DNA of 64,000 bases from Pseudomonadales bacterium (GCA_019090455.1 JAHRWA010000008.1:8083-72082), one strand, 5' to 3'; shown: positions 15,380 through 26,817, counted from the stretch's first letter. The notes: generated from the sequence alone by a model not told the origin. Program-made: numbers and translations.

Positions 15380-18300
15380 ATGAGCATCGGAAAATGCGAA
15401 GCATTAAAACGTCACCAATCTAGACAAACTCTTGGTCAATCTATTGATCATTATAAAAAACGGATTCGTTACGCCGGCTTTATTTTTCTATCTCAGTTCT
15501 TACTGATCACGGCCAACGCTGAAACAGTGACTATTTTGCCTGATGGTCCGGACCAAATGCCGGTCTTGTTTATACACGGTGTTAATTCCGATGGTGCTTT
15601 GTGGGGAGTGGGGCCAACAGAGGGGCATTTGGGGGGACGTGTAGATTTAGCGAGCAAGTATATCGAAACTAAAACGTTGGGGCCTGCTCGTTCCCCTTCT
15701 CGATTCTTTGATCAGCAGGGTATACCCAACTGGGCGGTTCAATGGAAAGCGGAGGGAGGCGATAGTCCTTATGCTAGCGCGGATGAAGGGCATGCATTTT
15801 TACAAACCCCAGCTGAATTAAGGGCAGGCGTTGACTGGATTGAGGGGACGTGGACCTCTCAAAATAACCCGCTACCCAGTGCAAAAAGCGTTTTAGCTTC
15901 ATTGCATATCCTTGACGTGGATACGACTAATCTTCCTCTTCCTATTACTGAAATTGATAAAGTGGCAGCCCCAAATTTTTCAAGATTGATGATCGCAGCT
16001 CAATTGCCCGGAAGACATAATTATCAAACAGCAGGTCGTATTGATGGTCGTGCTGATAATCTGTTGGATATGTTAGCGTCTGAGCGCAGCGAAATGGGTA
16101 AACTTGGCAAGTATAGACAAGTCAATATTCTCACTCACTCAATGGGAAGCCTGATCACTCGGGCCGCATTACACAAGGCGGTTGAGGATGGTTCTCGTCA
16201 AGATTCAGAATTTGTCGCGAACGTGATTTATAACGCGCCTCCGTTCGCGGGCTCTACATTGGCATATCTGGCGAACTTATTGTTTGAACCGACACTAGTG
16301 ACTCGGGAAGTATTTGCCGATCCTATGGTTAGGCGGATGTTAGAGACGCATCCAGTAGCAGTCGCATCTATTGGTGGATTGATAGATGTTATTATTTCTC
16401 CCCTTTATAGGGAGCTGGGTTTTACTTCTACCTCATTTTACGGCTCCTTACCGTTATCGTTCAAAGTAACAAAATTCCTTTTAGATAGAACGAACGGAGG
16501 TAATGCGGGTATTCTTTTATTAAATTATCTTACGGTGGATATATTTTGGGGAAATGTAGCGGCGACCTTTATGAATACAGGATTGCGCGCACTCCTTCGG
16601 GATTATAATGGACTGCCGGGGATGAAAGAGCTGGAGCCGGAAGGTGGGGCAACTCACATCACACGTTATGATAATCATCCCGATATAAAACAATTTGTCA
16701 CTTTGGGTAATGGTGGTCCACAAGTAAACTTGTTTCCTGATAATTTGAGTTCAATCGTCACTAACCCCGATATATTATTCAATCCGCCTTTTTTATCTGC
16801 TCAGCAAGATGATTTGGCCTTGGCTACCGGTAGTGCAGAGCTATTAACAACGACCGATGCTTTTGGTCCGGCCATGACACTGCTGTCGCCTATCAATTCA
16901 ACCTCGGGTGTCTTTAATGGTTTTACCCATGAAGATTTGTGGTCCCATAATGTGCCGGCCATGGCTCCAGTGTGGCTGAAAACCTTATGGGTGCCGCCGA
17001 CCAGTTTAATCTTAGACGGTGATGTTATTGAAGCGGATTCGGCATCACGTAGTTATGTTATTAATGATCTGGATACGGAAATTCGATTTGAGTCGGAGTC
17101 CTTTGATAAAGCGTTAACTTTTACGGCACCGTTTCCTGTCAATCAACAAGATAGTTTAACGATTAATGTAGCCGCTGCATCTCATCAATACCGCGTTATT
17201 CCCGACAATGGTACTTTCACTGAAGTCGAAGAATGGCAGGAGTTGGCGGTGGGTTCCAGCCTTTCGTTCCGGCAAATTGTCGATGATTTTTCGCTATCAG
17301 GAACTCCCTTCTTTCTGGAATGGCGCTCGATTAATGCCATAGGAGGTCGAGAGATGATTCGGCGAGCACGTTTTGCCGTGATAGGGGATGTCGCTCAGAT
17401 ATCCAGTTACCGACTGTTGGCCGTTGATTACAGTGAGGTGTTGGAGAAGTCTGCTTACTCGCATTTGGATGCTAAAGCCGTACGCAATAAACTATTACTG
17501 CGGACGCTAGAGGGGAATGCCTCTTTATTGGAAAAGTTAGCGCAAGTGCAGGCGCAAACCGAGGCGAAGTGGGTGTTACGCAATCCGCAAAGCAAAGCAC
17601 TTTTCTTCACCTTCGATGCACGCACGGATATAGAGTATGCGTGGGATGATGAAACCCTTTCTAACCCCAGCAATCGGGCGGATGTGGATAGCGCGGTAAT
17701 CAATTTAGGTTCTTTAAGCGAGGGGCGTCACAATTTGTTTATACGTACATCGGTATCCGCAATCGGTGTTACACAACAATCGGATATTATGCAATTCAGT
17801 GTGTTAGTCGATAACACACCACCGTTGATCCATTTTACCCAAGCCAGCAATCATCCGTTAGGGGTGGTCGTCGGGCCGATGACGCCATTGTATTTTACAG
17901 TACAGGATATTGAAACCAACGCGGCAACGGGCGTGGCATTGTTGGCGGGTCAGGAGAAATGGACTTACCCCGATAGCAAAATTTTTAATTTAAATAATAC
18001 AGATTTTATTGAAGACCTCGAATCGAAGGGTATCGCCGGCGGCTTTGTTGATATTGTTTTTAACGCGGAAGACGCCGTTGGAAATCGCAGTGAAATCACT
18101 GAGCAGTTTTATTTGGATATCGTCTCGCCCGACCAAGAAATTGTTGAAATTACGGATACATTATTAGTTGCGCAAGGTGAATATAAAACCGCGACAAAGA
18201 CGGTGACATTAGTGTTAGATCAGTCAGATTCCGGAGCCGGTGTGACTGAAAACCCACACTTAATGGGGGTGCATGAAAATGGCGAACTGGTTGCCAATGA

Positions 18301-20875
18301 AACGTTGATTAAAGGAGCCGTCGCAGGATTCTTACAAAGTTATAGCGCCGATATAGAATTATCGGAGGGTATCAATCACTTCGTTGTGAATTCTGTCGAT
18401 ATTGCCGGTAATGTTGCCGCACTGGAATTTGATATTGAATACGCATCAATTGAATCTGTTAGTGATGTTGATATGTTGTCGCCTCGGCTGGAGAGCTGCT
18501 TTGATGAAGAGGGGGAAGCTGCAATTTGCGGGTCGACAGGTGCGATTGACGAAATGGCCACGTCCTATCACGGAGATACCACGGTATTTTCCTCCAGCGG
18601 ACGACGTTTTGTTCATGGTGATTTTAATAAGGAGCAGGATGTCTTTGTTTATCGTAATGGATTGTTGTCTTTAGTGAGTAGTACGCAAGATCTAGAGCAG
18701 AGCAATGGGAGAAGCCAGCAGCCTGCTGTTTCAGGAAACGGTCGATATATTGTCTTTCAAAGTGCAGCGACGAATCTGGTCGCTAATACAGAACAAACGA
18801 GTAGCACGCAGAAGAACTTATATATAAAAGACTTGGATACAGGAAAAATTGCGGTAATTTCCCGAGAAAGCGACCAATCCCCTGCAAATCTATTCGGTAG
18901 TTTTAATTATTTATCTGCGATTACCTATTCGGGACGTTATGTGTTTTTTTCTGCTCGTGTGAATCGATTCGTTGACGGAATGACCTCACCGGATAATTTT
19001 AACAAGATGTACATGGTTGATCTTGATCCCGATGCTAACGGAGATTATTTTGATGATAATTATCAAAATCACGCAGTCTCCTATAGAGCCGATGAAGAAA
19101 CAGAAATGTTAGCGGGAAATATGTTGAACGCCAGTGTGAGCCAGAATGGTAAATACCTGGCGTTCAGTACGGGTGTGAATGAACTCACTACGTCTGCAGG
19201 TATTATGTTGTTTAAATTTTCCGGCAATGATGTAGATGGCACGTTGGATGTGTCTCAGAGAGAAGCCGTTTTTATTGGGGGCGGTAGTTTGGCTCGTGTT
19301 AGCCCAAGAGGTGATAGTGTTGCTTTCCTCACTCGTGATAATTTAACGGCAGATGATGACAATCAAGATGGCGTTGATGCGGACATCTATCTTTCGTCGG
19401 GTGAAACAGCAGGCGGAAGTTTTAGTAATCGTCAGCTTGAATTGGTAAGCAAGTCCCATGACGGTGGAGGGTCAGCAGGTAACGGCGGATATGTCATTAA
19501 ACATATTGCTATTAGCCAGGATGCTCCTTCAAGCTCAAGTGACAGCGACGTAAAAGTCAGTTGGGTGTCGGAACACAATAATATTGTGTTGAACGACGGT
19601 AATAATGCAGAAGACCTTTTTGTTTATCGCCAGTCACTCACTTTTCCTGATGGTTTAGAAGTGCCGAATTGGATTAGCAGTGATACACCCTCTATTAACG
19701 TCGGAGCGGGCCTGTTAACCCCAGATGGGCGTTACGCTCTCTGGACGACTCGACAAACTTACTTTGATCCGTTTGCACCCGATGGGAATACCAACGTCTA
19801 TCGACGACGAATTGATCCCATTGCAGAAATCACATTAGACGTAGCGATAGTCGGTGACGGTACTGTGAATCGCTTTCCGGAAGGCAGTGAAGTCACAGCC
19901 TCTACGTTTGATTATAATGACGATGAACAGGTCGTGTTAACGGCTCGGGCGAATGAGAATTCAGTCTTTATCGGCTGGACGATCGCTGATGGAGCGGGTA
20001 GCAGTGGTTTGGGTAGCGATGGCAACAGTACAAACTCTGTCTTGACATTAAAAATGCATGAGGCGAAAAGTGTTGTCGCGAATTTCGAAACCGTTCCTGG
20101 CCCTGTATCAGCGGCCGTTGAAATCACTACTGATCAGAATGTAGAAAGTCTCGGTGTAGAACCCGTCATCCAAGGTGAGCCGCAGCATTTGTATTCGGTA
20201 ACAATAGAGTCTAACCCGTTAAACGGTCAGGTTCGAGCCAGCAACGGCCTGCTGTTTTATAAACCCGATGTCGATTTTGTTGGCAGCGATAGTTTTACCT
20301 TCCAAGTTGAGAATCAATTTGGACAACGCTTGGCGACACCCGCTACTGGGACCGTTATTGTTAACGCCGTTAACCAGGCGCCAGAATCTGCAACATTAGT
20401 CATTGAAACTCAAATGAATGTTGCCAGTGAATTAACAGAGCCTGAAATTGTCGACAGTACTGAGGATGAGGTATTTACTTACCGTGTGCTGATCCCACCA
20501 AACAATGGTGTTGTTAACATCATTGATGACGGCTTTATCTATACTCCGGTAACGGGGTTTGTGGGTGAGGATAGTTTTCTGTATCAGATAACGGATTCCG
20601 CCGATAACACGCTATCGGCAACAGCAACGATTACAGTACTGTCGTCCACGTTTGTTGAGCCATCGGAAGAACCCGTTGAGAATACAAATCCAGACATCGT
20701 TGATGAAACTGAAGATCCTATCGAAGATGAATCTAATCCGCCCTCGAATGATGATGCGGGTGAAGAGTCAGGTGGCGGCGGTGGAGGTGGTGCGTTGGAA
20801 CCTGTGAGGCTTTTTGTCTTCATGATGCTACTGCTTTTTCTTAGAATGAGGGGGTTGCGAAGAAAATTGGTGTAG
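15380..20875 (+). CDS. Giant secreted multidomain protein: lipase-like alpha/beta hydrolase, Ig-like domains, TolB/PD40-like beta-propeller repeats, InlB-B-type repeat, two cadherin/Big-like domains, acidic linker and a GlyGly-CTERM-like anchor
   Basis: The signal peptide is FIFLSQFLLITANA. The hydrolase has PVLFIHGVNSDG and the nucleophile elbow LTHSMGS. Repeated PD40-like strands are present (SGNGRYIVFQSAATNLV, SQNGKYLAFST, SPRGDSVAFLT, TPDGRYALWTT). There is an SVFIGWT-type repeat and two DFVG.DSF.(F/Y)Q modules. The C-terminus is SGGGGGGALEPVRLFVFMMLLLFLRMRGLRRKLV, a Gly run followed by a TM helix and a basic cluster. Confidence 0.75.
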   Translation: MSIGKCEALKRHQSRQTLGQSIDHYKKRIRYAGFIFLSQFLLITANAETVTILPDGPDQMPVLFIHGVNSDGALWGVGPTEGHLGGRVDLASKYIETKTLGPARSPSRFFDQQGIPNWAVQWKAEGGDSPYASADEGHAFLQTPAELRAGVDWIEGTWTSQNNPLPSAKSVLASLHILDVDTTNLPLPITEIDKVAAPNFSRLMIAAQLPGRHNYQTAGRIDGRADNLLDMLASERSEMGKLGKYRQVNILTHSMGSLITRAALHKAVEDGSRQDSEFVANVIYNAPPFAGSTLAYLANLLFEPTLVTREVFADPMVRRMLETHPVAVASIGGLIDVIISPLYRELGFTSTSFYGSLPLSFKVTKFLLDRTNGGNAGILLLNYLTVDIFWGNVAATFMNTGLRALLRDYNGLPGMKELEPEGGATHITRYDNHPDIKQFVTLGNGGPQVNLFPDNLSSIVTNPDILFNPPFLSAQQDDLALATGSAELLTTTDAFGPAMTLLSPINSTSGVFNGFTHEDLWSHNVPAMAPVWLKTLWVPPTSLILDGDVIEADSASRSYVINDLDTEIRFESESFDKALTFTAPFPVNQQDSLTINVAAASHQYRVIPDNGTFTEVEEWQELAVGSSLSFRQIVDDFSLSGTPFFLEWRSINAIGGREMIRRARFAVIGDVAQISSYRLLAVDYSEVLEKSAYSHLDAKAVRNKLLLRTLEGNASLLEKLAQVQAQTEAKWVLRNPQSKALFFTFDARTDIEYAWDDETLSNPSNRADVDSAVINLGSLSEGRHNLFIRTSVSAIGVTQQSDIMQFSVLVDNTPPLIHFTQASNHPLGVVVGPMTPLYFTVQDIETNAATGVALLAGQEKWTYPDSKIFNLNNTDFIEDLESKGIAGGFVDIVFNAEDAVGNRSEITEQFYLDIVSPDQEIVEITDTLLVAQGEYKTATKTVTLVLDQSDSGAGVTENPHLMGVHENGELVANETLIKGAVAGFLQSYSADIELSEGINHFVVNSVDIAGNVAALEFDIEYASIESVSDVDMLSPRLESCFDEEGEAAICGSTGAIDEMATSYHGDTTVFSSSGRRFVHGDFNKEQDVFVYRNGLLSLVSSTQDLEQSNGRSQQPAVSGNGRYIVFQSAATNLVANTEQTSSTQKNLYIKDLDTGKIAVISRESDQSPANLFGSFNYLSAITYSGRYVFFSARVNRFVDGMTSPDNFNKMYMVDLDPDANGDYFDDNYQNHAVSYRADEETEMLAGNMLNASVSQNGKYLAFSTGVNELTTSAGIMLFKFSGNDVDGTLDVSQREAVFIGGGSLARVSPRGDSVAFLTRDNLTADDDNQDGVDADIYLSSGETAGGSFSNRQLELVSKSHDGGGSAGNGGYVIKHIAISQDAPSSSSDSDVKVSWVSEHNNIVLNDGNNAEDLFVYRQSLTFPDGLEVPNWISSDTPSINVGAGLLTPDGRYALWTTRQTYFDPFAPDGNTNVYRRRIDPIAEITLDVAIVGDGTVNRFPEGSEVTASTFDYNDDEQVVLTARANENSVFIGWTIADGAGSSGLGSDGNSTNSVLTLKMHEAKSVVANFETVPGPVSAAVEITTDQNVESLGVEPVIQGEPQHLYSVTIESNPLNGQVRASNGLLFYKPDVDFVGSDSFTFQVENQFGQRLATPATGTVIVNAVNQAPESATLVIETQMNVASELTEPEIVDSTEDEVFTYRVLIPPNNGVVNIIDDGFIYTPVTGFVGEDSFLYQITDSADNTLSATATITVLSSTFVEPSEEPVENTNPDIVDETEDPIEDESNPPSNDDAGEESGGGGGGGALEPVRLFVFMMLLLFLRMRGLRRKLV

Positions 20876-21123: not shown

Positions 21124-22110
21124 TTAGAAAATGTCATGAGAGGTGTTGCCGTATATCTGTGGTTCTTGTTTGTAGCCTAGACCTTTTTTAATTGAATCTC
21201 GCTTAACGCTCCGGCGTACACTTTGATATATAGTATCGAGCTGCTTGGTTCCCTTTGATAACTGGTCGATGAGGTAATAGGAAAAGAGCCTATGTCCCTT
21301 ATCTTGAAAATCATTTGCGAATTCATTACTTTTTCCGGCGGTAAAAACGGCGAGCTTGCGGCTATCGACTTTTTCTTTTTTCACCTTTAATACGGGCGCG
21401 ACTCCCTTGTATAATAGATTGCCTTCATCATCTTTACCGCTAAAGCACGAATCAATGAATACAAATACACTAGATGCCGACGAGGAGGAAAGTTTTTTAT
21501 AGATATTGCTCAACTTCAAGTTAGGTTCTAAATAAATGGCATCGGCACTCATGTCTGCAGGCAATAAATAGGTATCTCCATCTTTGCCTGGTACACCATG
21601 ACCGGCAAAATAGAGATAGATTTTGGAGTCATTCTCCGCCAGCTCCCTTAGTGTTTCGATTTTGTATTTCAGTTGGCCACTACTAGCTTCATCGTTATAC
21701 AGGGTTAAGATATTTTTCTCGGGAATACCGAATGTCGTATTTGCCAATTGATAAAAAGACTGCGCTGACGAATCAGCATACATCACATTGGTGTTTTGTT
21801 TGTATTCATTGATGCCGATAATCAAGGCGTAGGAGTTGTCATTGATGTTGGGGTTTTTAGTGTAGGTGAAAGCGCTTTTCCGTCTTTTACTGTTTTTCGA
21901 AAGCTTAGCGCGTCTTGTACTCTTAGGACTATCTGAGGACTCGTTAGGCTGAGCGTCACCTTTACCGCTGGATAGAGTTGTTATCGTATCAGCGAGAGTG
22001 TTGGCCGCTTCCGAAGATGCCTCGAGTATATTGTTGACGGCAACGGAGGAGCAGCCAAAGAAGACCGCTGACATTAGGCAGATCATGATGAGTCGTGTTA
22101 GAGCAATCAT
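21124..22110 (-). CDS. Caspase-fold (peptidase C14 / orthocaspase-like) lipoprotein
   Basis: The lipobox is AVFFGCSS. A low-complexity linker follows, then YALIIGINEY, the catalytic His in YLYFAGHGVPG and the catalytic Cys in VFIDSCFSGK. The ATG at 22110 is preceded by GGAGA; the track ORF starts 15 nt earlier at a TTG. Confidence 0.8.
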   Translation of the reverse strand: MIALTRLIMICLMSAVFFGCSSVAVNNILEASSEAANTLADTITTLSSGKGDAQPNESSDSPKSTRRAKLSKNSKRRKSAFTYTKNPNINDNSYALIIGINEYKQNTNVMYADSSAQSFYQLANTTFGIPEKNILTLYNDEASSGQLKYKIETLRELAENDSKIYLYFAGHGVPGKDGDTYLLPADMSADAIYLEPNLKLSNIYKKLSSSSASSVFVFIDSCFSGKDDEGNLLYKGVAPVLKVKKEKVDSRKLAVFTAGKSNEFANDFQDKGHRLFSYYLIDQLSKGTKQLDTIYQSVRRSVKRDSIKKGLGYKQEPQIYGNTSHDIF

Positions 22111-22332
22111 GCTATATATCTCCAATTAATTGAGTAGCAGTCCCATAGGGCCACGAATTTAGATAGGTTGTGAATACATCCCTTCGCTGGGATAGCGGTG
22201 GCACTAATTCTATCAGTAGATACTGAATTAGACGAAGCTAATAATAACAATGTGACTCCTTTAGGCCGTGAGTTAGACTATATACCTCTTCCAATCTCCC
22301 TTCGCAAAGTCGGTCATATTTTAATGATGTTA

Positions 22333-22734
22333 ATGAAATACATTGCGTTATCCTTTGTACTACTGCTGGCGGGTTGTGGCTTTATTTCAGATGAGCTGTT
22401 GAATTGCCTTAATCGTGAACTTGAATTTTCTCAAAGCACCATTCCGCCAGCGGTATTGAACCAAGAGTATCAAACGACAATTTCAGCGGCTATTCGTCAT
22501 ACCCCTGACGATGACGTTTATTCCTATCGCCTTTCTTTATCGGGGGATTTACCATCTGGCCTTGAATATTATCGTTCCTCTTCTAGTCGGCATATGGAGT
22601 TTCGGGGAACACCTCTTGAAAGTGGAGACTTTCCATTTGAATTGCGAGTCTCTTTGCCTATGGATGATGAGGATCTATTTTGCGGGGAAAATGTGCTAAC
22701 GCAGAGCTATACCTTACGCGTATCGGTCATGTAG
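22333..22734 (+). CDS. Small lipoprotein with a putative Ig-like domain
   Basis: MKYIALSFVLLLAGCGF is a signal peptide with a lipobox; the track ORF begins upstream at a GTG. LSGDLPSGLEY resembles the 'putative Ig' surface-protein repeat. The function is unknown. Confidence 0.5.
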   Translation: MKYIALSFVLLLAGCGFISDELLNCLNRELEFSQSTIPPAVLNQEYQTTISAAIRHTPDDDVYSYRLSLSGDLPSGLEYYRSSSSRHMEFRGTPLESGDFPFELRVSLPMDDEDLFCGENVLTQSYTLRVSVM

Positions 22735-22845
22735 TGGTTGAAACGAGAAAGGATGCATCTGTTGACAATGTTAGATATCATCGCATCTAGCACATTATTT
22801 TTAGTCATCAGGTGAGTCAAAAGTCACTATGAGAATTGTATTTGA

Positions 22846-23847
22846 ATGACAGTATTTAAACGGACATCCTTCTTTTTTCTACCCCCTCTCTTTTTTTCTA
22901 TTCTGCTTCTTGTTTGGCACGACGGGGTTTTTGCCGCATATCCTGCTTGGTATTTAAAGTCAGCGACTAACAGCTATGAACTTTACGGCTATGGGCAGGG
23001 GGCGACGATTAATGATGCGAAGGCAAGAGCGTTACTTGATATTGCCCAGGCGTTGGAGGTTCAGGTCGAAGGCTCAATGACGATATCTGAATCGTTACAT
23101 AACGATAATTTTGAGAGCGCTGTTTCTCAAGATGTTAAAACCTCTTCCTCTTCCGTTATTGTGGGTGCGGTACTAAAAAATTTCCACGAGAGTGAGGGTA
23201 TTTGGTATGTGTTGCTCACCTACGATACCCGGTCGCTAGGTTTGAAGTTTAAGAGTGTGTTGAAAGCCAGAGCGCTGGTGGAAGAGACGAATAATTATTT
23301 GTCTGAATCCAGTTTAGTCAGCAAGATAAATCAACAGGTAGGCGTCAAATTACGCTACCAAGTTTTACGGGAAGATGACCTTTGGAAAATTCGCTACAAA
23401 GACGTTAAGTTTACGCTTACTGAATCGGAGTTAATAAAAACATTTAAGCCTAACAAGGGAAAATCGATAGGCTTAAAGCTCAATAAAAAAATATATTATC
23501 CTGAAGATGTTATGACGTTTGATGTTACCTCACGAGACAAAGGATTCGTGTCCATTCTTTTGGTAGAAAAAAATGGCAAGGTCGGTGTTCTTTATTCCAA
23601 TATTGAAAGTCACTCGAAGATGGTCGTTCCTAGCAAAGATAGCGATGAGGAAATAATCGTATCGAATCCAGAACAAAAAGTCCTGCACGAAATGTACGTC
23701 GCAATCTGGAGTGAAAACCCTAGGGACTTATCATTATTTGAAGATATTCAGAGTGATTATCTTGATGATAGTAACTATAAATTTGGAGACCTCACCAATC
23801 TATTGGACACTGTAGATTACAGTTCGGCAGTCATAAAAATAAAGTAG
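22846..23847 (+). CDS. Secreted LPP20-like / DUF4384-like two-domain protein
   Basis: The signal peptide is FFFLPPLFFSILLLVWHDGVFA. The N-terminal PAWY...YGYGQGATINDAKARALLDIAQ resembles LPP20-family proteins. The C-terminal KIYYPEDVMTFDVTSRDKGFVSILLVEKNGKVGVLYSN resembles DUF4384. Both calls rest on remembered family patterns. Confidence 0.5.
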   Translation: MTVFKRTSFFFLPPLFFSILLLVWHDGVFAAYPAWYLKSATNSYELYGYGQGATINDAKARALLDIAQALEVQVEGSMTISESLHNDNFESAVSQDVKTSSSSVIVGAVLKNFHESEGIWYVLLTYDTRSLGLKFKSVLKARALVEETNNYLSESSLVSKINQQVGVKLRYQVLREDDLWKIRYKDVKFTLTESELIKTFKPNKGKSIGLKLNKKIYYPEDVMTFDVTSRDKGFVSILLVEKNGKVGVLYSNIESHSKMVVPSKDSDEEIIVSNPEQKVLHEMYVAIWSENPRDLSLFEDIQSDYLDDSNYKFGDLTNLLDTVDYSSAVIKIK

Positions 23848-25136: not shown

Positions 25137-25602
25137 TGTTTCTCTATTTTCCATTGTGCCTGCGATAACGTTGGCACATGGGATCTTCTAAGTATTTCTT
25201 CGTCCCGCCTCAGATCTTTAATCATTTGCTGCACTAGCTAATTTTATCCCTATCCAAAGTTACTACCATTCAATGTTACCGCCATCCAAAGTTGAGACAA
25301 GCTTGAATCGTTATTGAAGTTCGATTGCCAATCGACAGAGAATCATTTTTTGATGATTAGAGTTGTCCACATTGATGTGAGTCAATGGCTTTTAATATGA
25401 TCCCGCTAATCTTCTAGTTTTAGCGCCACTGATCCTTTCTATACATAGAGAATAGAACGACATAGCGAGTAGCAGGTAGAGTTCGAAAATCTCATTTTTG
25501 AGGGATTTCCCCCAATACTCAGATCAGTGTGTGCGTGATACTCAGTTCAATTAGACGCATCACGGAGACAAGTGAGATATGCAGCTGAAGACCCATTTGT
25601 TT

Positions 25603-25670
25603 AATGAATCTAGGCTTAATGAATCTAGGCTTAATAAATCTAAGCTTAATAAATCTAGGCTTAAGAAATG
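25603..25670. repeat. 15-bp tandem repeat, about 4.5 copies, at the 5' end of the coxB reading frame
   Basis: The units are aatgaatctaggctt, aatgaatctaggctt, aataaatctaagctt, aataaatctaggctt and a partial aagaaatg. They translate as LNESR-LNESR-LNKSK-LNKSR in the long ORF. Confidence 0.9.
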
Positions 25671-25680
25671 TTGGATTTTA

Positions 25681-26817
25681 ATGTTTCAGATCACAACAGG
25701 ATCTATTCGATTAGTCGGTTTTCTTTCACTTTTTTTTTGTAGCGTTGCAATGGCATCACCGTCTGATCGATGGCAAATGAATTTGTCACCAGGTGTCACT
25801 GAATTAGGGAAATCCATTTATGATTTGCATATGATCATTGTCTGGATCTGTGTAGCAATTGGGGTCGTCGTTTTTGGTGTGATGGGATACGTGCTGATTG
25901 CCCATCGTAAATCCCTGGGAAGAACACCTGCCACCTTTGATGAAAGCGTCAAAATCGAAATCGCGTGGACGATAGTGCCGACATTGATTTTGATGTTAAT
26001 GGTGGTGCCAGCGACCAAAACGATGATTGAGATCTACGATACTAGTGAAGCAGATCTGGATATTATGATCACCGGCTACCAATGGAAATGGAAATATGAA
26101 TACATCGACAATGAGGGTGGTGAAAATTTCTCTTTCATGAGTATCCTGTCCACTCCGCAAGACCAGATCAATAACCTTGAGCCCAAAGGTGAAAACTACT
26201 TATTAGAAGTGGATGAGCCATTAGTGATTCCTGTGAATAAGAAGACGCGCTTGCTGCTCACCGGTGCTGATGTGATACATGCCTGGTGGGTGCCGGCATT
26301 GGCTGTGAAGAAGGACGCGATTCCTGGGTTTGTAAATGAAGCTTGGACCTTGCCCACCGAGATAGGAACTTACCGAGGTCAGTGTGCGGAACTGTGCGGT
26401 AAGGATCACGGATTTATGCCAATCGTGGTTGAGGTAGTGAGTGAAGAGGATTACGCGATTTGGCTAGCCGATAAAAAGAACGCTTCTAAAGTTGATCTTA
26501 GTGTGAAAACGAAAGATGAGCTGATGGCCAGCGGGCAGGCCCTCTATGATAAAAACTGCGCTGCTTGTCATCAGGTAAACGGTAGCGGAATTCCTGGAGT
26601 TTTTCCTGCCTTAATTGACAGCCCTATTGCCTTGGGTGATGTTAAAAAGCATATCGATATTGTAGTCAATGGATTGCCAGGCACAGCGATGGGAGCCTAC
26701 GGAGATCAACTACCGCCCGATGTGTTGGCTGCAATTATTACCTATGAAAGAAATGCTTGGGGCAATGATGTCGGTGACACAGTTCAAGCTGCAGACGTCA
26801 CTAACTTTAATCGTTGA
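25681..26817 (+). CDS. coxB: Cytochrome c oxidase subunit II with a C-terminal cytochrome c domain
   Basis: The CuA site is HAWWVPALAVK...CAELCGKDHGFM and the C-terminal heme-c motif is CAACHQ. The start is uncertain. The ATG at 25681 gives a normal signal/TM N-terminus, while the ATG at 25579 would add the repeat-encoded extension. Confidence 0.88.
   Translation: MFQITTGSIRLVGFLSLFFCSVAMASPSDRWQMNLSPGVTELGKSIYDLHMIIVWICVAIGVVVFGVMGYVLIAHRKSLGRTPATFDESVKIEIAWTIVPTLILMLMVVPATKTMIEIYDTSEADLDIMITGYQWKWKYEYIDNEGGENFSFMSILSTPQDQINNLEPKGENYLLEVDEPLVIPVNKKTRLLLTGADVIHAWWVPALAVKKDAIPGFVNEAWTLPTEIGTYRGQCAELCGKDHGFMPIVVEVVSEEDYAIWLADKKNASKVDLSVKTKDELMASGQALYDKNCAACHQVNGSGIPGVFPALIDSPIALGDVKKHIDIVVNGLPGTAMGAYGDQLPPDVLAAIITYERNAWGNDVGDTVQAADVTNFNR

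What the first reader, a model, noticed from the sequence alone, without database searches (positions are those of the whole stretch)
21124..23847. Extracytoplasmic caspase-fold lipoprotein, divergent from an Ig-like lipoprotein and an LPP20/DUF4384-like protein
The caspase-like protein has an intact His/Cys dyad context (FAGHG, DSCFSG) but carries a lipobox, so it should act in the envelope rather than the cytoplasm. Two more exported proteins are transcribed divergently from it. The second combines an LPP20-like N-terminal domain with a DUF4384-like C-terminal domain. As far as I recall, DUF4384 is often found fused to or adjacent to bacterial caspase domains. The trio lies directly after the giant surface protein gene. 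The block might form an envelope proteolytic-processing or surface-remodelling module. No function has been established for such modules.
Basis: partly seen in the sequence, partly recalled or inferred. Interest (0 to 1): 0.55.

Follow-up and report, generated by a model that had tools for sequence, protein, structure and literature searches.

The report
Exported caspase with conserved LPP20/DUF4384 partner

Summary
The minus-strand gene 21124-22110 encodes a lipoprotein with a Peptidase_C14 (caspase-fold) domain. Its His/Cys dyad is invariant in 25 homologs. P2 (22333-22734) is a lipoprotein with one Ig-like He_PIG domain. P3 (22846-23847) is a secreted protein with an LPP20/SHS2 N-domain, homologous to H. 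pylori HP1454, and a DUF4384 C-terminal beta-sandwich.

The functional unit is not the trio. It is the caspase + P3 pair.
- P3 lies next to the caspase in 29 of 50 distinct locus groups, a lower bound because many contigs are cut.
- The P3 gene usually starts 2-3 nt after the caspase gene.
- Three divergent P3 relatives found independently all sit beside a C14 gene.
- Relatives often add a third component, a novel small lipoprotein (up to five tandem copies). The window lacks it.
- P2 and the 1831-aa surface protein are not conserved neighbours.

My best reading, which is inferred, is an outer-membrane-tethered protease that probably cuts after Arg/Lys. Its soluble partner would dock through DUF4384 and position or regulate it through an oligomerising LPP20 domain. 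Substrate or inhibitor roles for P3 are not excluded.

I found no publication describing this pairing. I rate it a new variant of a known kind, of moderate interest.

The parts
21124..22110 (-). Lipoprotein orthocaspase-like gene (328 aa from the ATG at 22110; the maximal ORF starts at the TTG at 22125). The stop codon is 21124-21126.
   Evidence: ORF. Pfam Peptidase_C14 58.8 bits. 100% identical to P0001, 'caspase family protein [Pseudomonadales bacterium]', 328 aa. AF2 model pLDDT 78, above 90 in the catalytic domain. Foldseek finds MALT1, metacaspases and GSU0716.
22051..22110 (-). Lipoprotein signal peptide, MIALTRLIMICLMSAVFFG-C. The lipid-modified Cys20 codon is 22051-22053 and the next residue is Ser.
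   Evidence: Sequence. A lipobox Cys aligns in about 22 of 25 homologs. About 37 of 44 distinct family members have one, and none of the 32 counted automatically has Asp after the Cys.
21859..22050 (-). Low-complexity tether between the lipid anchor and the catalytic domain (about residues 21-84), ending in a basic stretch STRRAKLSKNSKRRKS.
   Evidence: AF2 pLDDT below 50 for residues 22-76. This region is variable in length and sequence in the family alignment.
21127..21858 (-). Caspase-fold catalytic domain (about residues 85-328). The His171 codon is 21598-21600 and the Cys222 codon is 21445-21447. Asp220 and Asp113 are candidate S1-pocket acids. An invariant loop at residues 224-244 follows the Cys.
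   Evidence: H171, C222, D220 and D113 are invariant in A2. Codons were read from the sequence. Fold match to MALT1 3v4o_A, TM 0.75. TbMC2 pocket residues Asp95 and Asp211 are given in PMC6426788.
22111..22332 (.). Divergent intergenic region between the caspase and P2 starts, presumably holding both promoters.
   Evidence: Coordinates. The consensus promoter scan was not above background.
22333..22734 (+). P2, a small lipoprotein (133 aa, lipobox LLAGC) with one He_PIG-type Ig-like domain (about residues 30-107, 22420-22653). It is lineage-specific and not a conserved partner.
   Evidence: ORF. The L088 ortholog is called at 133 aa. 617 homologs. The homologs match He_PIG PF05345. No homolog in 87 related loci.
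22846..23847 (+). P3, the conserved secreted partner of the caspase (333 aa). It has a signal peptide (residues 1-30), an LPP20/SHS2 domain with a beta-hairpin insert (33-127; 22942-23226), a small alpha/beta middle domain (131-200; 23236-23445) and a DUF4384 beta-sandwich (205-333; 23458-23844).
   Evidence: Pfam. HP1454 (4kzs) homology at E=7e-13. AF2 model pLDDT 74.6. Adjacent to a caspase gene in 29 of 50 locus groups and in 3 of 3 independently found divergent members.

Best explanation
The real unit is a conserved, exported two-gene module.

(1) The first gene encodes a caspase-fold (Peptidase C14, orthocaspase-like) cysteine protease. It is made as a lipoprotein and hangs from a membrane on a disordered tether of about 55-65 residues. 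The membrane is probably the inner face of the outer membrane, because the residue after the lipid-modified Cys is Ser, not Asp. The His/Cys dyad is intact, and two invariant Asp residues sit where metacaspases place their S1-pocket acids. It most likely cuts after Arg or Lys.

(2) The second gene, P3, encodes a soluble periplasmic protein that is co-translated with the caspase in most relatives. I infer that P3 is the protease's non-catalytic partner. Its C-terminal DUF4384 beta-sandwich would dock on the caspase domain. This domain is fused directly to caspases, trypsin-like proteases and kinases elsewhere. Its N-terminal LPP20/SHS2 domain is homologous to H. pylori HP1454 and carries the beta-hairpin insert seen in ring-forming FlgP and FlgT. 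That domain would self-associate or bind outer-membrane-proximal structures. The result would be to place and gate proteolysis of envelope proteins.

In many relatives a third component, a novel small lipoprotein (sLP), is encoded just upstream in one to five copies. It is a candidate substrate, adaptor or inhibitor. In this window the sLP is missing, the caspase gene is inverted, and an unrelated Ig-like lipoprotein (P2) sits in between.

Shown: domain identities, export signals, conservation of the dyad, and gene linkage in both directions.
Inferred: physical interaction, specificity, membrane location, and the scaffold or regulator role.
For: Domain identity:
- C14 at 58.8 bits. H171, C222, D220 and D113 are invariant.
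- The fold matches MALT1, metacaspases and GSU0716.
- Acidic pocket residues in TbMC2 are Asp95 and Asp211, the latter at Cys-2.

Export:
- The caspase has a lipobox in about 37 of 44 members, with no Asp after the Cys among the 32 counted automatically.
- P3 has a type I signal peptide in 30 of 31 members.
- The sLP has a lipobox in about 15 of 16 members.

Linkage:
- The caspase gene is followed by P3 on the same strand, with a 2-3 nt gap or an overlap, in most loci.
- P3 is present in 29 of 50 distinct locus groups despite truncated contigs.
- A divergent layout like the window's occurs in L019, L047, L055 and L095.
- Three of three divergent P3 members (22-26% identity) lie beside a C14 gene.
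- Divergence of the two proteins is correlated: Mantel r=0.51, with 26 of 5000 permutations reaching it.
- Each partner domain also sits next to distant caspases: DUF4384 in L066 and LPP20 in L071.

DUF4384 and proteases:
- It is fused to proteases and caspases in the literature.

P3 N-domain:
- It is homologous to HP1454 at E=7e-13.
- HP1454 binds FlgP, FapH and itself.
- The hairpin insert correlates with ring formation in this fold family, and P3's model has it at residues 77-96.
Against: - There is no direct evidence of a caspase-P3 contact.
- P3 evolves faster than the caspase (mean divergence 0.53 against 0.34). This also fits a substrate or an inhibitor.
- About 30% of close-clade caspases with enough flank lack P3 nearby, for example Sulfurimonas L005. 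P3 is therefore not obligatory for every member.
- The window's own DUF4384 score is below Pfam's threshold.
- The hairpin in the P3 model has low confidence.
- Whole-model fold matches for P3 are weak, best E=4e-3.
- The '+2' sorting rule is an E. coli rule and may not hold in this organism.
Confidence: 0.4

Rival explanations
1. P3, and the sLP lipoproteins in relatives, are the dedicated substrates. The tethered caspase would cleave them after a basic residue to mature, release or activate them. This would resemble Csx29 cleaving Csx30 in type III-E CRISPR systems, or caspase-like proteases activating bacterial gasdermins, but in the periplasm.
For: - Some Csx30 proteins, which are substrates of the caspase-like Csx29, carry a DUF4384 C-terminal domain.
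- P3 diverges faster than the enzyme.
- sLP paralogs occur in tandem arrays of up to five. They share a conserved basic C-terminal tail, P(L/F)FK..NK, that could be a cleavage site.
- Tight gene coupling is equally expected for an enzyme-substrate pair.
Against: - No conserved exposed Arg/Lys linker is obvious in P3. Its nearly invariant K59, R175 and K245 lie inside predicted domains.
- DUF4384 is more often fused in cis to proteases and kinases, which suggests a binding or regulatory module rather than a cargo.
- There is no effector-like domain in P3.
Confidence: 0.2
2. P3 and/or the sLP are inhibitors or immunity-type proteins. They would keep the envelope protease silent until a trigger arrives, like staphostatin with staphopain or other co-encoded inhibitors of exported cysteine proteases.
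For: - Gene coupling suggests stoichiometric co-expression.
- The sLP shares the caspase's lipoprotein anchoring, so the two would co-localise.
- P3's C-terminal beta-sandwich weakly resembles macroglobulin-type domains of alpha-2-macroglobulin and complement (2p9r, TM 0.62-0.66, E about 0.02).
- The loop after the catalytic Cys is invariant in sequence but not confidently modelled, which would fit a regulated loop.
Against: - The macroglobulin resemblance is generic for Ig-like sandwiches and is not significant.
- Some caspases lack both P3 and the sLP nearby, and the window lacks the sLP. Permanent inhibition is therefore not essential.
- No known inhibitor family matches.
Confidence: 0.15
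3. The module is an envelope-located death or defence device. A stress or phage signal would unleash the caspase on envelope proteins, causing lysis or growth arrest.
For: - Bacterial caspase homologs are widely discussed in programmed cell death, and extracellular localisation was noted as compatible with this (PMC3501461).
- A generic PADLOC caspase model gives a partial hit of 46.6 bits.
Against: - P2, P3 and the sLP have no PADLOC match.
- The NCBIfam EACC1-associated caspase model is far below its cut-off, 70.7 against 140.
- Neighbours are housekeeping genes with no mobile-element or defence-island signature.
- The locus is stably syntenic within lineages.
Confidence: 0.08
4. The caspase-fold lipoprotein acts as a sortase or transamidase-like enzyme, like GPI8 or PorU. 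It would process or attach the adjacent 1831-aa surface protein, with P2 and P3 as accessory factors. This is essentially the first reader's surface-remodelling idea.
For: - The giant protein is immediately upstream. It ends in a Gly run, a hydrophobic helix and RRK, which looks like a sorting signal.
- One homolog was auto-annotated as a GPI8-like transamidase by JGI (P0097).
- A VPLPA-CTERM protein lies two genes upstream of the caspase in L006.
Against: - No giant ORF lies near the pair in other loci.
- P2 is absent from all related loci.
- The giant protein's tail gives only a 10.4-bit, E=0.24 match to a GlyGly-CTERM family.
- Such signals are normally handled by rhombosortase or exosortase, not by caspases (established knowledge).
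Confidence: 0.05

Closest known systems
Bacterial orthocaspases / prokaryotic metacaspase-like Peptidase C14 proteins (e.g. cyanobacterial orthocaspases; GSU0716, PDB 3bij)
   Same: Same Pfam family, same His-Cys dyad, and the same Asp two residues before the catalytic Cys. DUF4384 is a recurrent companion. Some members were already noted to have N-terminal signal or TM segments and extracellular domains.
   Different: This clade is a lipoprotein with a long tether. DUF4384 is supplied in trans on a separate secreted protein, which also carries an LPP20/SHS2 domain. A novel small lipoprotein is often co-encoded. No characterised orthocaspase has this organisation, and sequence identity to solved structures is only 11-19%.
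MALT1 paracaspase (caspase domain + Ig3 domain)
   Same: It is the best structural match to the catalytic domain (3v4o_A, TM 0.75, E=3e-10). It is Arg-specific and has an Ig-like beta-sandwich beside the caspase domain (established knowledge). This is a useful analogy for DUF4384.
   Different: MALT1 is eukaryotic, cytoplasmic and a single chain. Sequence identity is 16-19%. The analogy with DUF4384 is an inference and was not tested.
H. pylori HP1454 / Lpp20 (HP1456) / FlgP family (Pfam LPP20, IPR024952, modified SHS2 fold)
   Same: P3's N-domain is homologous to HP1454 domain 1 (E=7e-13), including the mature N-terminal PxW(Y/F) motif. Like HP1454, it is secreted and not lipidated. Its predicted fold has the helix-to-strand-2 hairpin insert seen in ring-forming members.
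   Different: HP1454's other domains are not DUF4384, and no caspase gene is reported in its operon in the paper read. I saw no flagellar genes at the window locus, though only a few of its neighbours were annotated. Ring formation by P3 is untested.
Type III-E CRISPR Craspase (Csx29 protease and its substrate Csx30)
   Same: It is a caspase-like protease with a separately encoded partner that in some lineages carries DUF4384.
   Different: Craspase is cytoplasmic, RNA-guided and built on a TPR-CHAT protease. Here both proteins are exported. No CRISPR-Cas context was evident among the annotated neighbours, but I did not scan for it specifically.

Membership tests
Peptidase C14 (caspase / metacaspase / orthocaspase) | Match to PF00656 above the gathering threshold | tested here: met
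   58.8 bits against 21.4, residues 99-328 of the 333-aa ORF. All homologs tested also match.
Peptidase C14 (caspase / metacaspase / orthocaspase) | Catalytic His-Cys dyad present and conserved in orthologs | tested here: met
   H171 (FAGHG) and C222 (DSCFSG) are invariant in 25 sequences at 47-56% identity and in 18 further paired sequences.
Peptidase C14 (caspase / metacaspase / orthocaspase) | Caspase/hemoglobinase fold | tested here: met
   AF2 catalytic domain pLDDT above 90. Foldseek gives 192 PDB matches at E<=1e-3, all of the top 50 being caspase-fold proteins, led by MALT1 (TM 0.75).
Peptidase C14 (caspase / metacaspase / orthocaspase) | Acidic S1 pocket that gives Arg/Lys specificity (TbMC2 Asp95 and Asp211) | tested here: inconclusive
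   D220 lies exactly two residues before C222, like Asp211 and Cys213 in TbMC2. D113 is invariant in the expected N-terminal loop. I made no structural superposition of side chains.
Peptidase C14 (caspase / metacaspase / orthocaspase) | Proteolytic activity | not testable with these tools
   This needs an enzyme assay.
NCBIfam NF047832 'caspase, EACC1-associated type' | Score above the curated cut-off | tested here: not met
   70.7 bits against a cut-off of 140. This is general caspase similarity only.
Bacterial lipoprotein (caspase and P2) | Signal peptide ending in a lipobox [LVI..][ASTG..][GAS]-C | tested here: met
   Caspase ..SAVFFG-C, P2 ..LLLAG-C. The Cys is conserved across the caspase family. 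This is pattern-based; no dedicated predictor was available.
Pfam LPP20 (PF02169) / modified SHS2 fold (P3 N-domain) | HMM match above threshold, and homology to a solved member | tested here: met
   35.3 bits against 25.9. 19 of 20 family members match. The profile hits HP1454 (4kzs) at E=7e-13. The predicted beta-alpha-hairpin-beta-beta topology fits.
Pfam LPP20 (PF02169) / modified SHS2 fold (P3 N-domain) | Lipoprotein anchoring, as in Lpp20 and FlgP | tested here: not met
   30 of 31 P3 members have a type I signal peptide without a lipobox. In this they resemble secreted HP1454 rather than Lpp20 or FlgP.
Pfam DUF4384 (PF14326) (P3 C-domain) | HMM match above the gathering threshold | tested here: inconclusive
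   The window protein scores 17.5 bits against 27, E=0.0045. However, 19 of 20 family members match at E<=0.01, best 2.8e-7. P0122 and P0123 carry PF14326 in precomputed annotation. The predicted beta-sandwich fits. Membership holds at family level.
Pfam He_PIG (PF05345) putative Ig domain (P2) | HMM match | tested here: inconclusive
   P2 itself has no hit at E<=1. Its homologs do: P0136 at 686 bits with 19 repeats, and small single-domain homologs at 19-24 bits. The assignment is transitive.
Known anti-phage defence systems (PADLOC-DB v2) | Component HMM matches for the gene set | tested here: not met
   Only a partial generic caspase hit of 46.6 bits. P2, P3, the sLP and the giant protein have none.
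GlyGly-CTERM / PEP-CTERM sorting signal (neighbouring 1831-aa protein) | Match to a C-terminal sorting-domain model | tested here: inconclusive
   The tail gives 10.4 bits, E=0.24, to a GlyGly-CTERM family tail. Nothing reaches a cut-off.

The most novel reading that the evidence does not exclude
The lipoprotein caspase, the HP1454-like/DUF4384 protein and the small lipoproteins form a previously unrecognised periplasmic protease machine. P3 would assemble through its FlgP-like hairpin into a ring or lattice under the outer membrane. That assembly would hold tethered caspases. The sLP paralogs would be interchangeable substrates or adaptors that are clipped at their basic C-terminal tails. This would be an envelope-resident caspase signalling or remodelling system, shared by marine Gammaproteobacteria and Campylobacterota.
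Probability: 0.12. Interest if true: 0.75.

Novelty: new variant of a known kind. Interest (0 to 1): 0.45.

Why it matters
Bacterial caspase homologs are numerous but almost entirely uncharacterised, and discussion of them centres on cytoplasmic cell-death roles.

This clade is exported, lipid-anchored, catalytically intact and genetically locked to a secreted partner. That points to a role in the cell envelope.

It also gives DUF4384 a concrete, testable job as a protease-partner domain acting in trans. DUF4384 is an orphan domain mentioned in only seven papers of the searched library.

Finally, it links the LPP20/HP1454/FlgP fold family to proteolysis. A homolog is encoded in Sulfurimonas gotlandica GD1, a named isolate, which may make experiments feasible.

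Tried and rejected
- Reference-genome scan with the P3 alignment. It returned one locus because the back-translated patterns were too narrow. I used the metagenome scan instead.
- Fused-chain, linker-joined caspase+P3 complex prediction with 18 paired sequences. No interface evidence could be obtained.
- Homology between P2 and the small upstream lipoproteins of relatives. Rejected: BLASTP E=2.7, and the profile score was below zero.
- An sLP gene elsewhere in the 64-kb window. None was found.
- Promoter and terminator consensus scans. Counts were not above the shuffled background, so they were uninformative.
- A defence-system reading. PADLOC has no match for the partners.
- The giant surface protein as a conserved partner. 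Rejected by its absence from other loci.
- sLP against PDB, Pfam and NCBIfam. Nothing was found.
- Other recurrent neighbours (MgtE, an O-methyltransferase). These are housekeeping genes that reflect synteny within one sub-clade.
Full report
**What is at the locus**

The window holds three ORFs at the stated coordinates.

The minus-strand ORF 21124-22125 most likely starts at the ATG at 22110, giving 328 aa. The 100%-identical public protein P0001 is 328 aa and is named 'caspase family protein [Pseudomonadales bacterium]'.
- It matches Pfam Peptidase_C14 at 58.8 bits against a cut-off of 21.4.
- It contains YFAGHGVPG and IDSCFSGKDD.
- Its N-terminus, MIALTRLIMICLMSAVFFG-C-SS, is a lipoprotein signal.

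P2 (ORF 22198-22734) has its functional start at about 22333, MKYIALSFVLLLAG-C. The ortholog in a 98%-identical strain is called at exactly 133 aa.

P3 (22846-23847) has a plain signal peptide ending VFA-AYPAWY.

The flanking genes are ordinary: O-acetylhomoserine sulfhydrylase-like and CoA-binding genes upstream of the giant gene, then a FabH-like gene and cytochrome oxidase genes downstream.

**Checking the domain calls**

Caspase.
- In an alignment of 25 homologs (47-56% identical), His171, Cys222, Asp220 and Asp113 are invariant. About 22 of 25 sequences align a lipobox Cys.
- An AlphaFold2 model has pLDDT above 90 through the catalytic domain. It has a disordered tether at residues 22-76. 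It also has a poorly modelled loop (224-244) right after the catalytic Cys, although that loop's sequence (GKDDxGxLLYKGVAPVL) is nearly invariant.
- Foldseek against the PDB returns only caspase-fold proteins among the top 50. These include the MALT1 paracaspase (3v4o_A, TM 0.75), fungal and plant metacaspases, Geobacter GSU0716 and animal caspases, at 11-19% identity.
- A sequence profile finds no solved relative.
- In the T. brucei metacaspase, Asp95 and Asp211 accommodate basic substrate residues, and Asp211 lies two residues before the catalytic Cys (PMC6426788). Asp220-Ser-Cys222 reproduces that spacing, and Asp113 sits in the expected earlier loop. I therefore infer Arg/Lys specificity. 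I made no structural superposition.

P3.
- LPP20 is above threshold (35.3 against 25.9). DUF4384 is below threshold for this sequence (17.5 against 27).
- Scanning 20 diverse family members individually, 19 match LPP20 (best 3e-12) and 19 match DUF4384 (best 2.8e-7). Both assignments therefore hold at family level.
- A family profile hits one solved protein, H. pylori HP1454 (4kzs), at E=7e-13 over P3 residues 18-117. The match includes the mature N-terminal A-x-P-x-W-(Y/F) motif.
- The P3 model (pLDDT 74.6, pTM 0.65) shows three parts: a beta-alpha-hairpin-beta-beta LPP20 domain (45-127), a small alpha/beta middle domain (131-200) and a beta-sandwich (205-333).
- Whole-model Foldseek matches are weak (best E=4e-3). 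They are generic Ig-like or macroglobulin-like sandwiches, plus HP1454 at rank 39.

P2.
- It has no direct Pfam hit.
- An exhaustive search finds 617 homologs. These include modules repeated up to 35 times in giant proteins, and many single-domain proteins of 130-185 aa.
- The homologs match He_PIG (PF05345), at up to 686 bits.

**Which genes belong together**

Neighbourhoods of caspase homologs show the order caspase then P3 on one strand.

I scanned metagenome contigs with the caspase alignment and obtained 80 loci. I called ORFs in them and searched with profiles of the caspase, of P3 (whole and in thirds) and of the small upstream protein.
- In the close clade (49% identity or more), P3 usually starts 2-3 nt after the caspase stop or overlaps it. 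This is the signature of an operon with translational coupling.
- By my hand count, about 28 of 40 distinct caspases with enough flank have P3 adjacent.
- By clustering, P3 is present in 29 of 50 distinct locus groups. This is a lower bound because many contigs end at the caspase.
- A divergent arrangement like the window's occurs in L019, L047, L055 and L095.

The reverse test also holds. Three P3 relatives only 22-26% identical to the window's P3, recovered without reference to the caspase, each lie next to a Peptidase_C14 gene.

Across 18 pairs the divergences of the two proteins are correlated (Mantel r=0.51; 26 of 5000 permutations reach it). P3 evolves faster, with mean divergence 0.53 against 0.34.

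In more distant exported caspases (about 30% identity, with CARDB, Glucodextran_B, SH3 or WD40 domains), a DUF4384-only protein (L066, 55.7 bits) or an LPP20-only protein (L071, 38.5 bits) follows the caspase gene. Each partner domain is therefore independently drawn to caspase genes.

**What does not belong**

- P2 has no homolog in any of the 87 related loci held at that point. It is retained only in a near-identical strain.
- No ORF of 800 aa or more occurs near the pair in other close-clade loci. The 1831-aa protein is therefore an accidental neighbour.
- The 1831-aa protein has a lipase-like N-terminus, PD40, InlB-type and Big_9/cadherin repeats.
- Its Gly-run, helix and RRK tail gives only a 10-bit match to a GlyGly-CTERM family.
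- The other recurrent neighbours (MgtE, an O-methyltransferase) are housekeeping genes reflecting synteny within one sub-clade.

**A third component the window lacks**

Upstream of the short (about 310 aa) caspases in relatives lies a small lipoprotein of 140-175 aa, which I call sLP.
- It has two conserved Cys residues, KG..F and PNG.F motifs, and a basic C-terminal tail P(L/F)FK..NK.
- In the locus of the closest caspase homolog (67% identity), five sLP paralogs stand in tandem before the caspase and P3 genes.
- The family matches nothing in Pfam, NCBIfam or the PDB.
- It is not related to P2, and it is not encoded anywhere in the 64-kb window.
- Longer caspases (400-514 aa) instead carry N-terminal extensions, some with ankyrin repeats.

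**Export signals**

| Family | Signal | Count (corrected by eye for Q/H/N at position -2) |
|---|---|---|
| Caspase | Lipobox | about 37 of 44; the rest have plain signal peptides |
| P3 | Type I signal peptide | 30 of 31 |
| sLP | Lipobox | about 15 of 16 |

None of the 32 caspases counted automatically has Asp after the lipid-modified Cys. Under the E. coli sorting rule this points to the outer membrane. That rule may not transfer to this organism.

**How it most likely works**

Shown: an intact, exported, lipid-anchored caspase-fold enzyme and a secreted partner that is genetically locked to it.

Inferred: P3 binds the protease through DUF4384 and positions or gates it through the LPP20 domain. 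The reasons are as follows.
- DUF4384 is repeatedly fused in cis to caspases, trypsin-like proteases and kinases, and it occurs in the Csx30 partner of the Csx29 protease. A trans-encoded copy next to a caspase is most simply a docking module. MALT1, the best structural match, likewise has an Ig-like domain beside its caspase domain (established knowledge, and an analogy only).
- The LPP20/SHS2 fold builds outer-membrane-proximal assemblies. FlgP forms the flagellar basal disk, and ring formation in the family correlates with a hairpin inserted between the helix and the second strand (PMC12222027). P3's model has that hairpin at 77-96, at low confidence.
- HP1454, P3's solved relative, binds FlgP, FapH and itself (PMC11756786).
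- FlgP is also reported to use a long unstructured N-terminal region to hang below the outer membrane. The caspase's 55-65-residue tether would do the same.

I put this reading at about 0.4. The rivals are P3 and the sLP as substrates (0.2), as inhibitors (0.15), an envelope death or defence device (0.08), and a sortase-like role on the giant protein (0.05). None of the first three is excluded by my data.

**Comparison with what is known, and novelty**

- The enzyme is a member of Peptidase C14 and most resembles bacterial orthocaspases.
- It does not meet NCBIfam's EACC1-associated caspase model (70.7 against 140).
- The gene set matches no PADLOC system.
- A 2012 survey already noted that some prokaryotic caspase homologs have signal-like N-termini and extracellular domains, without functional data (PMC3501461).
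- No paper in the searched library mentions LPP20 together with DUF4384. DUF4384 appears in only seven papers, none of which characterises it.

The finding is therefore a new variant of a known kind. It is a conserved exported caspase module with a trans DUF4384/LPP20 partner and, in relatives, a novel lipoprotein family.

Interest is moderate at 0.45. The association is robust and unreported as far as I could search, but the function remains inferred.

Noticed in passing
L089 3321-5923 (also L090 1852-4454; L001 144-632 and 2884-3345; L002 1262-2274): A novel small lipoprotein family (sLP, 140-175 aa) lies upstream of the caspase in relatives, in up to five tandem paralogs. It has two conserved Cys residues and a basic C-terminal tail P(L/F)FK..NK. 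It has no Pfam, NCBIfam or PDB match and is absent from the window.
   Followed up: partly
window 15380-20875 (+): The 1831-aa protein has a lipase-like alpha/beta-hydrolase N-terminus (weak, sub-threshold Pfam hits to DUF900, LCAT and Tle3 around ILTHSMGS), PD40, InlB B-repeat and Big_9/cadherin domains. Its C-terminal tail is a run of seven Gly, a hydrophobic helix and RRK. This looks like a GlyGly-CTERM or PEP-CTERM-type sorting signal but matches no model convincingly (10.4 bits).
   Followed up: partly
window caspase residues 224-244 (about 21379-21441, minus strand): The loop just after the catalytic Cys (GKDDxGxLLYKGVAPVL) is almost invariant across the family, yet AlphaFold2 models it with pLDDT below 50. 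It is a candidate regulated loop, partner-binding loop or autoprocessing loop.
   Followed up: no
L051 469-2010; L040 2650-4617: Some exported caspases of this clade carry ankyrin repeats in the N-terminal extension behind a signal peptide. This is an unusual location for ankyrin repeats.
   Followed up: no
L066 1000-4944; L071 132-2015; L063-L087 generally: Distant (about 30% identity) caspases have CARDB, Glucodextran_B, SH3_3 or WD40 domains N-terminal to the C14 domain. They are followed by a DUF4384-only protein (55.7 bits) or an LPP20-only protein (38.5 bits). This suggests a wider exported-caspase partnership.
   Followed up: partly
L006 4231-4944: A 237-aa protein two genes upstream of the caspase ends in a VPLPA-CTERM (exosortase-type) sorting signal, 36.8 bits against a cut-off of 25.35.
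   Followed up: partly
L091 / L092 5990-8760: In one Campylobacterota MAG, the caspase-P3 pair abuts a convergent CHASE2-guanylate cyclase gene and a FecR-domain gene. Upstream is a set of ketoacyl-synthase and ApeI-like genes.
   Followed up: no
window 25579-25700 (+): The ORF that continues into a cytochrome-oxidase-subunit-II-like protein begins with a repetitive peptide, NESRLNESRLNKSKLNKSRLKK, ahead of the membrane segments. The true start codon is probably further downstream.
   Followed up: no
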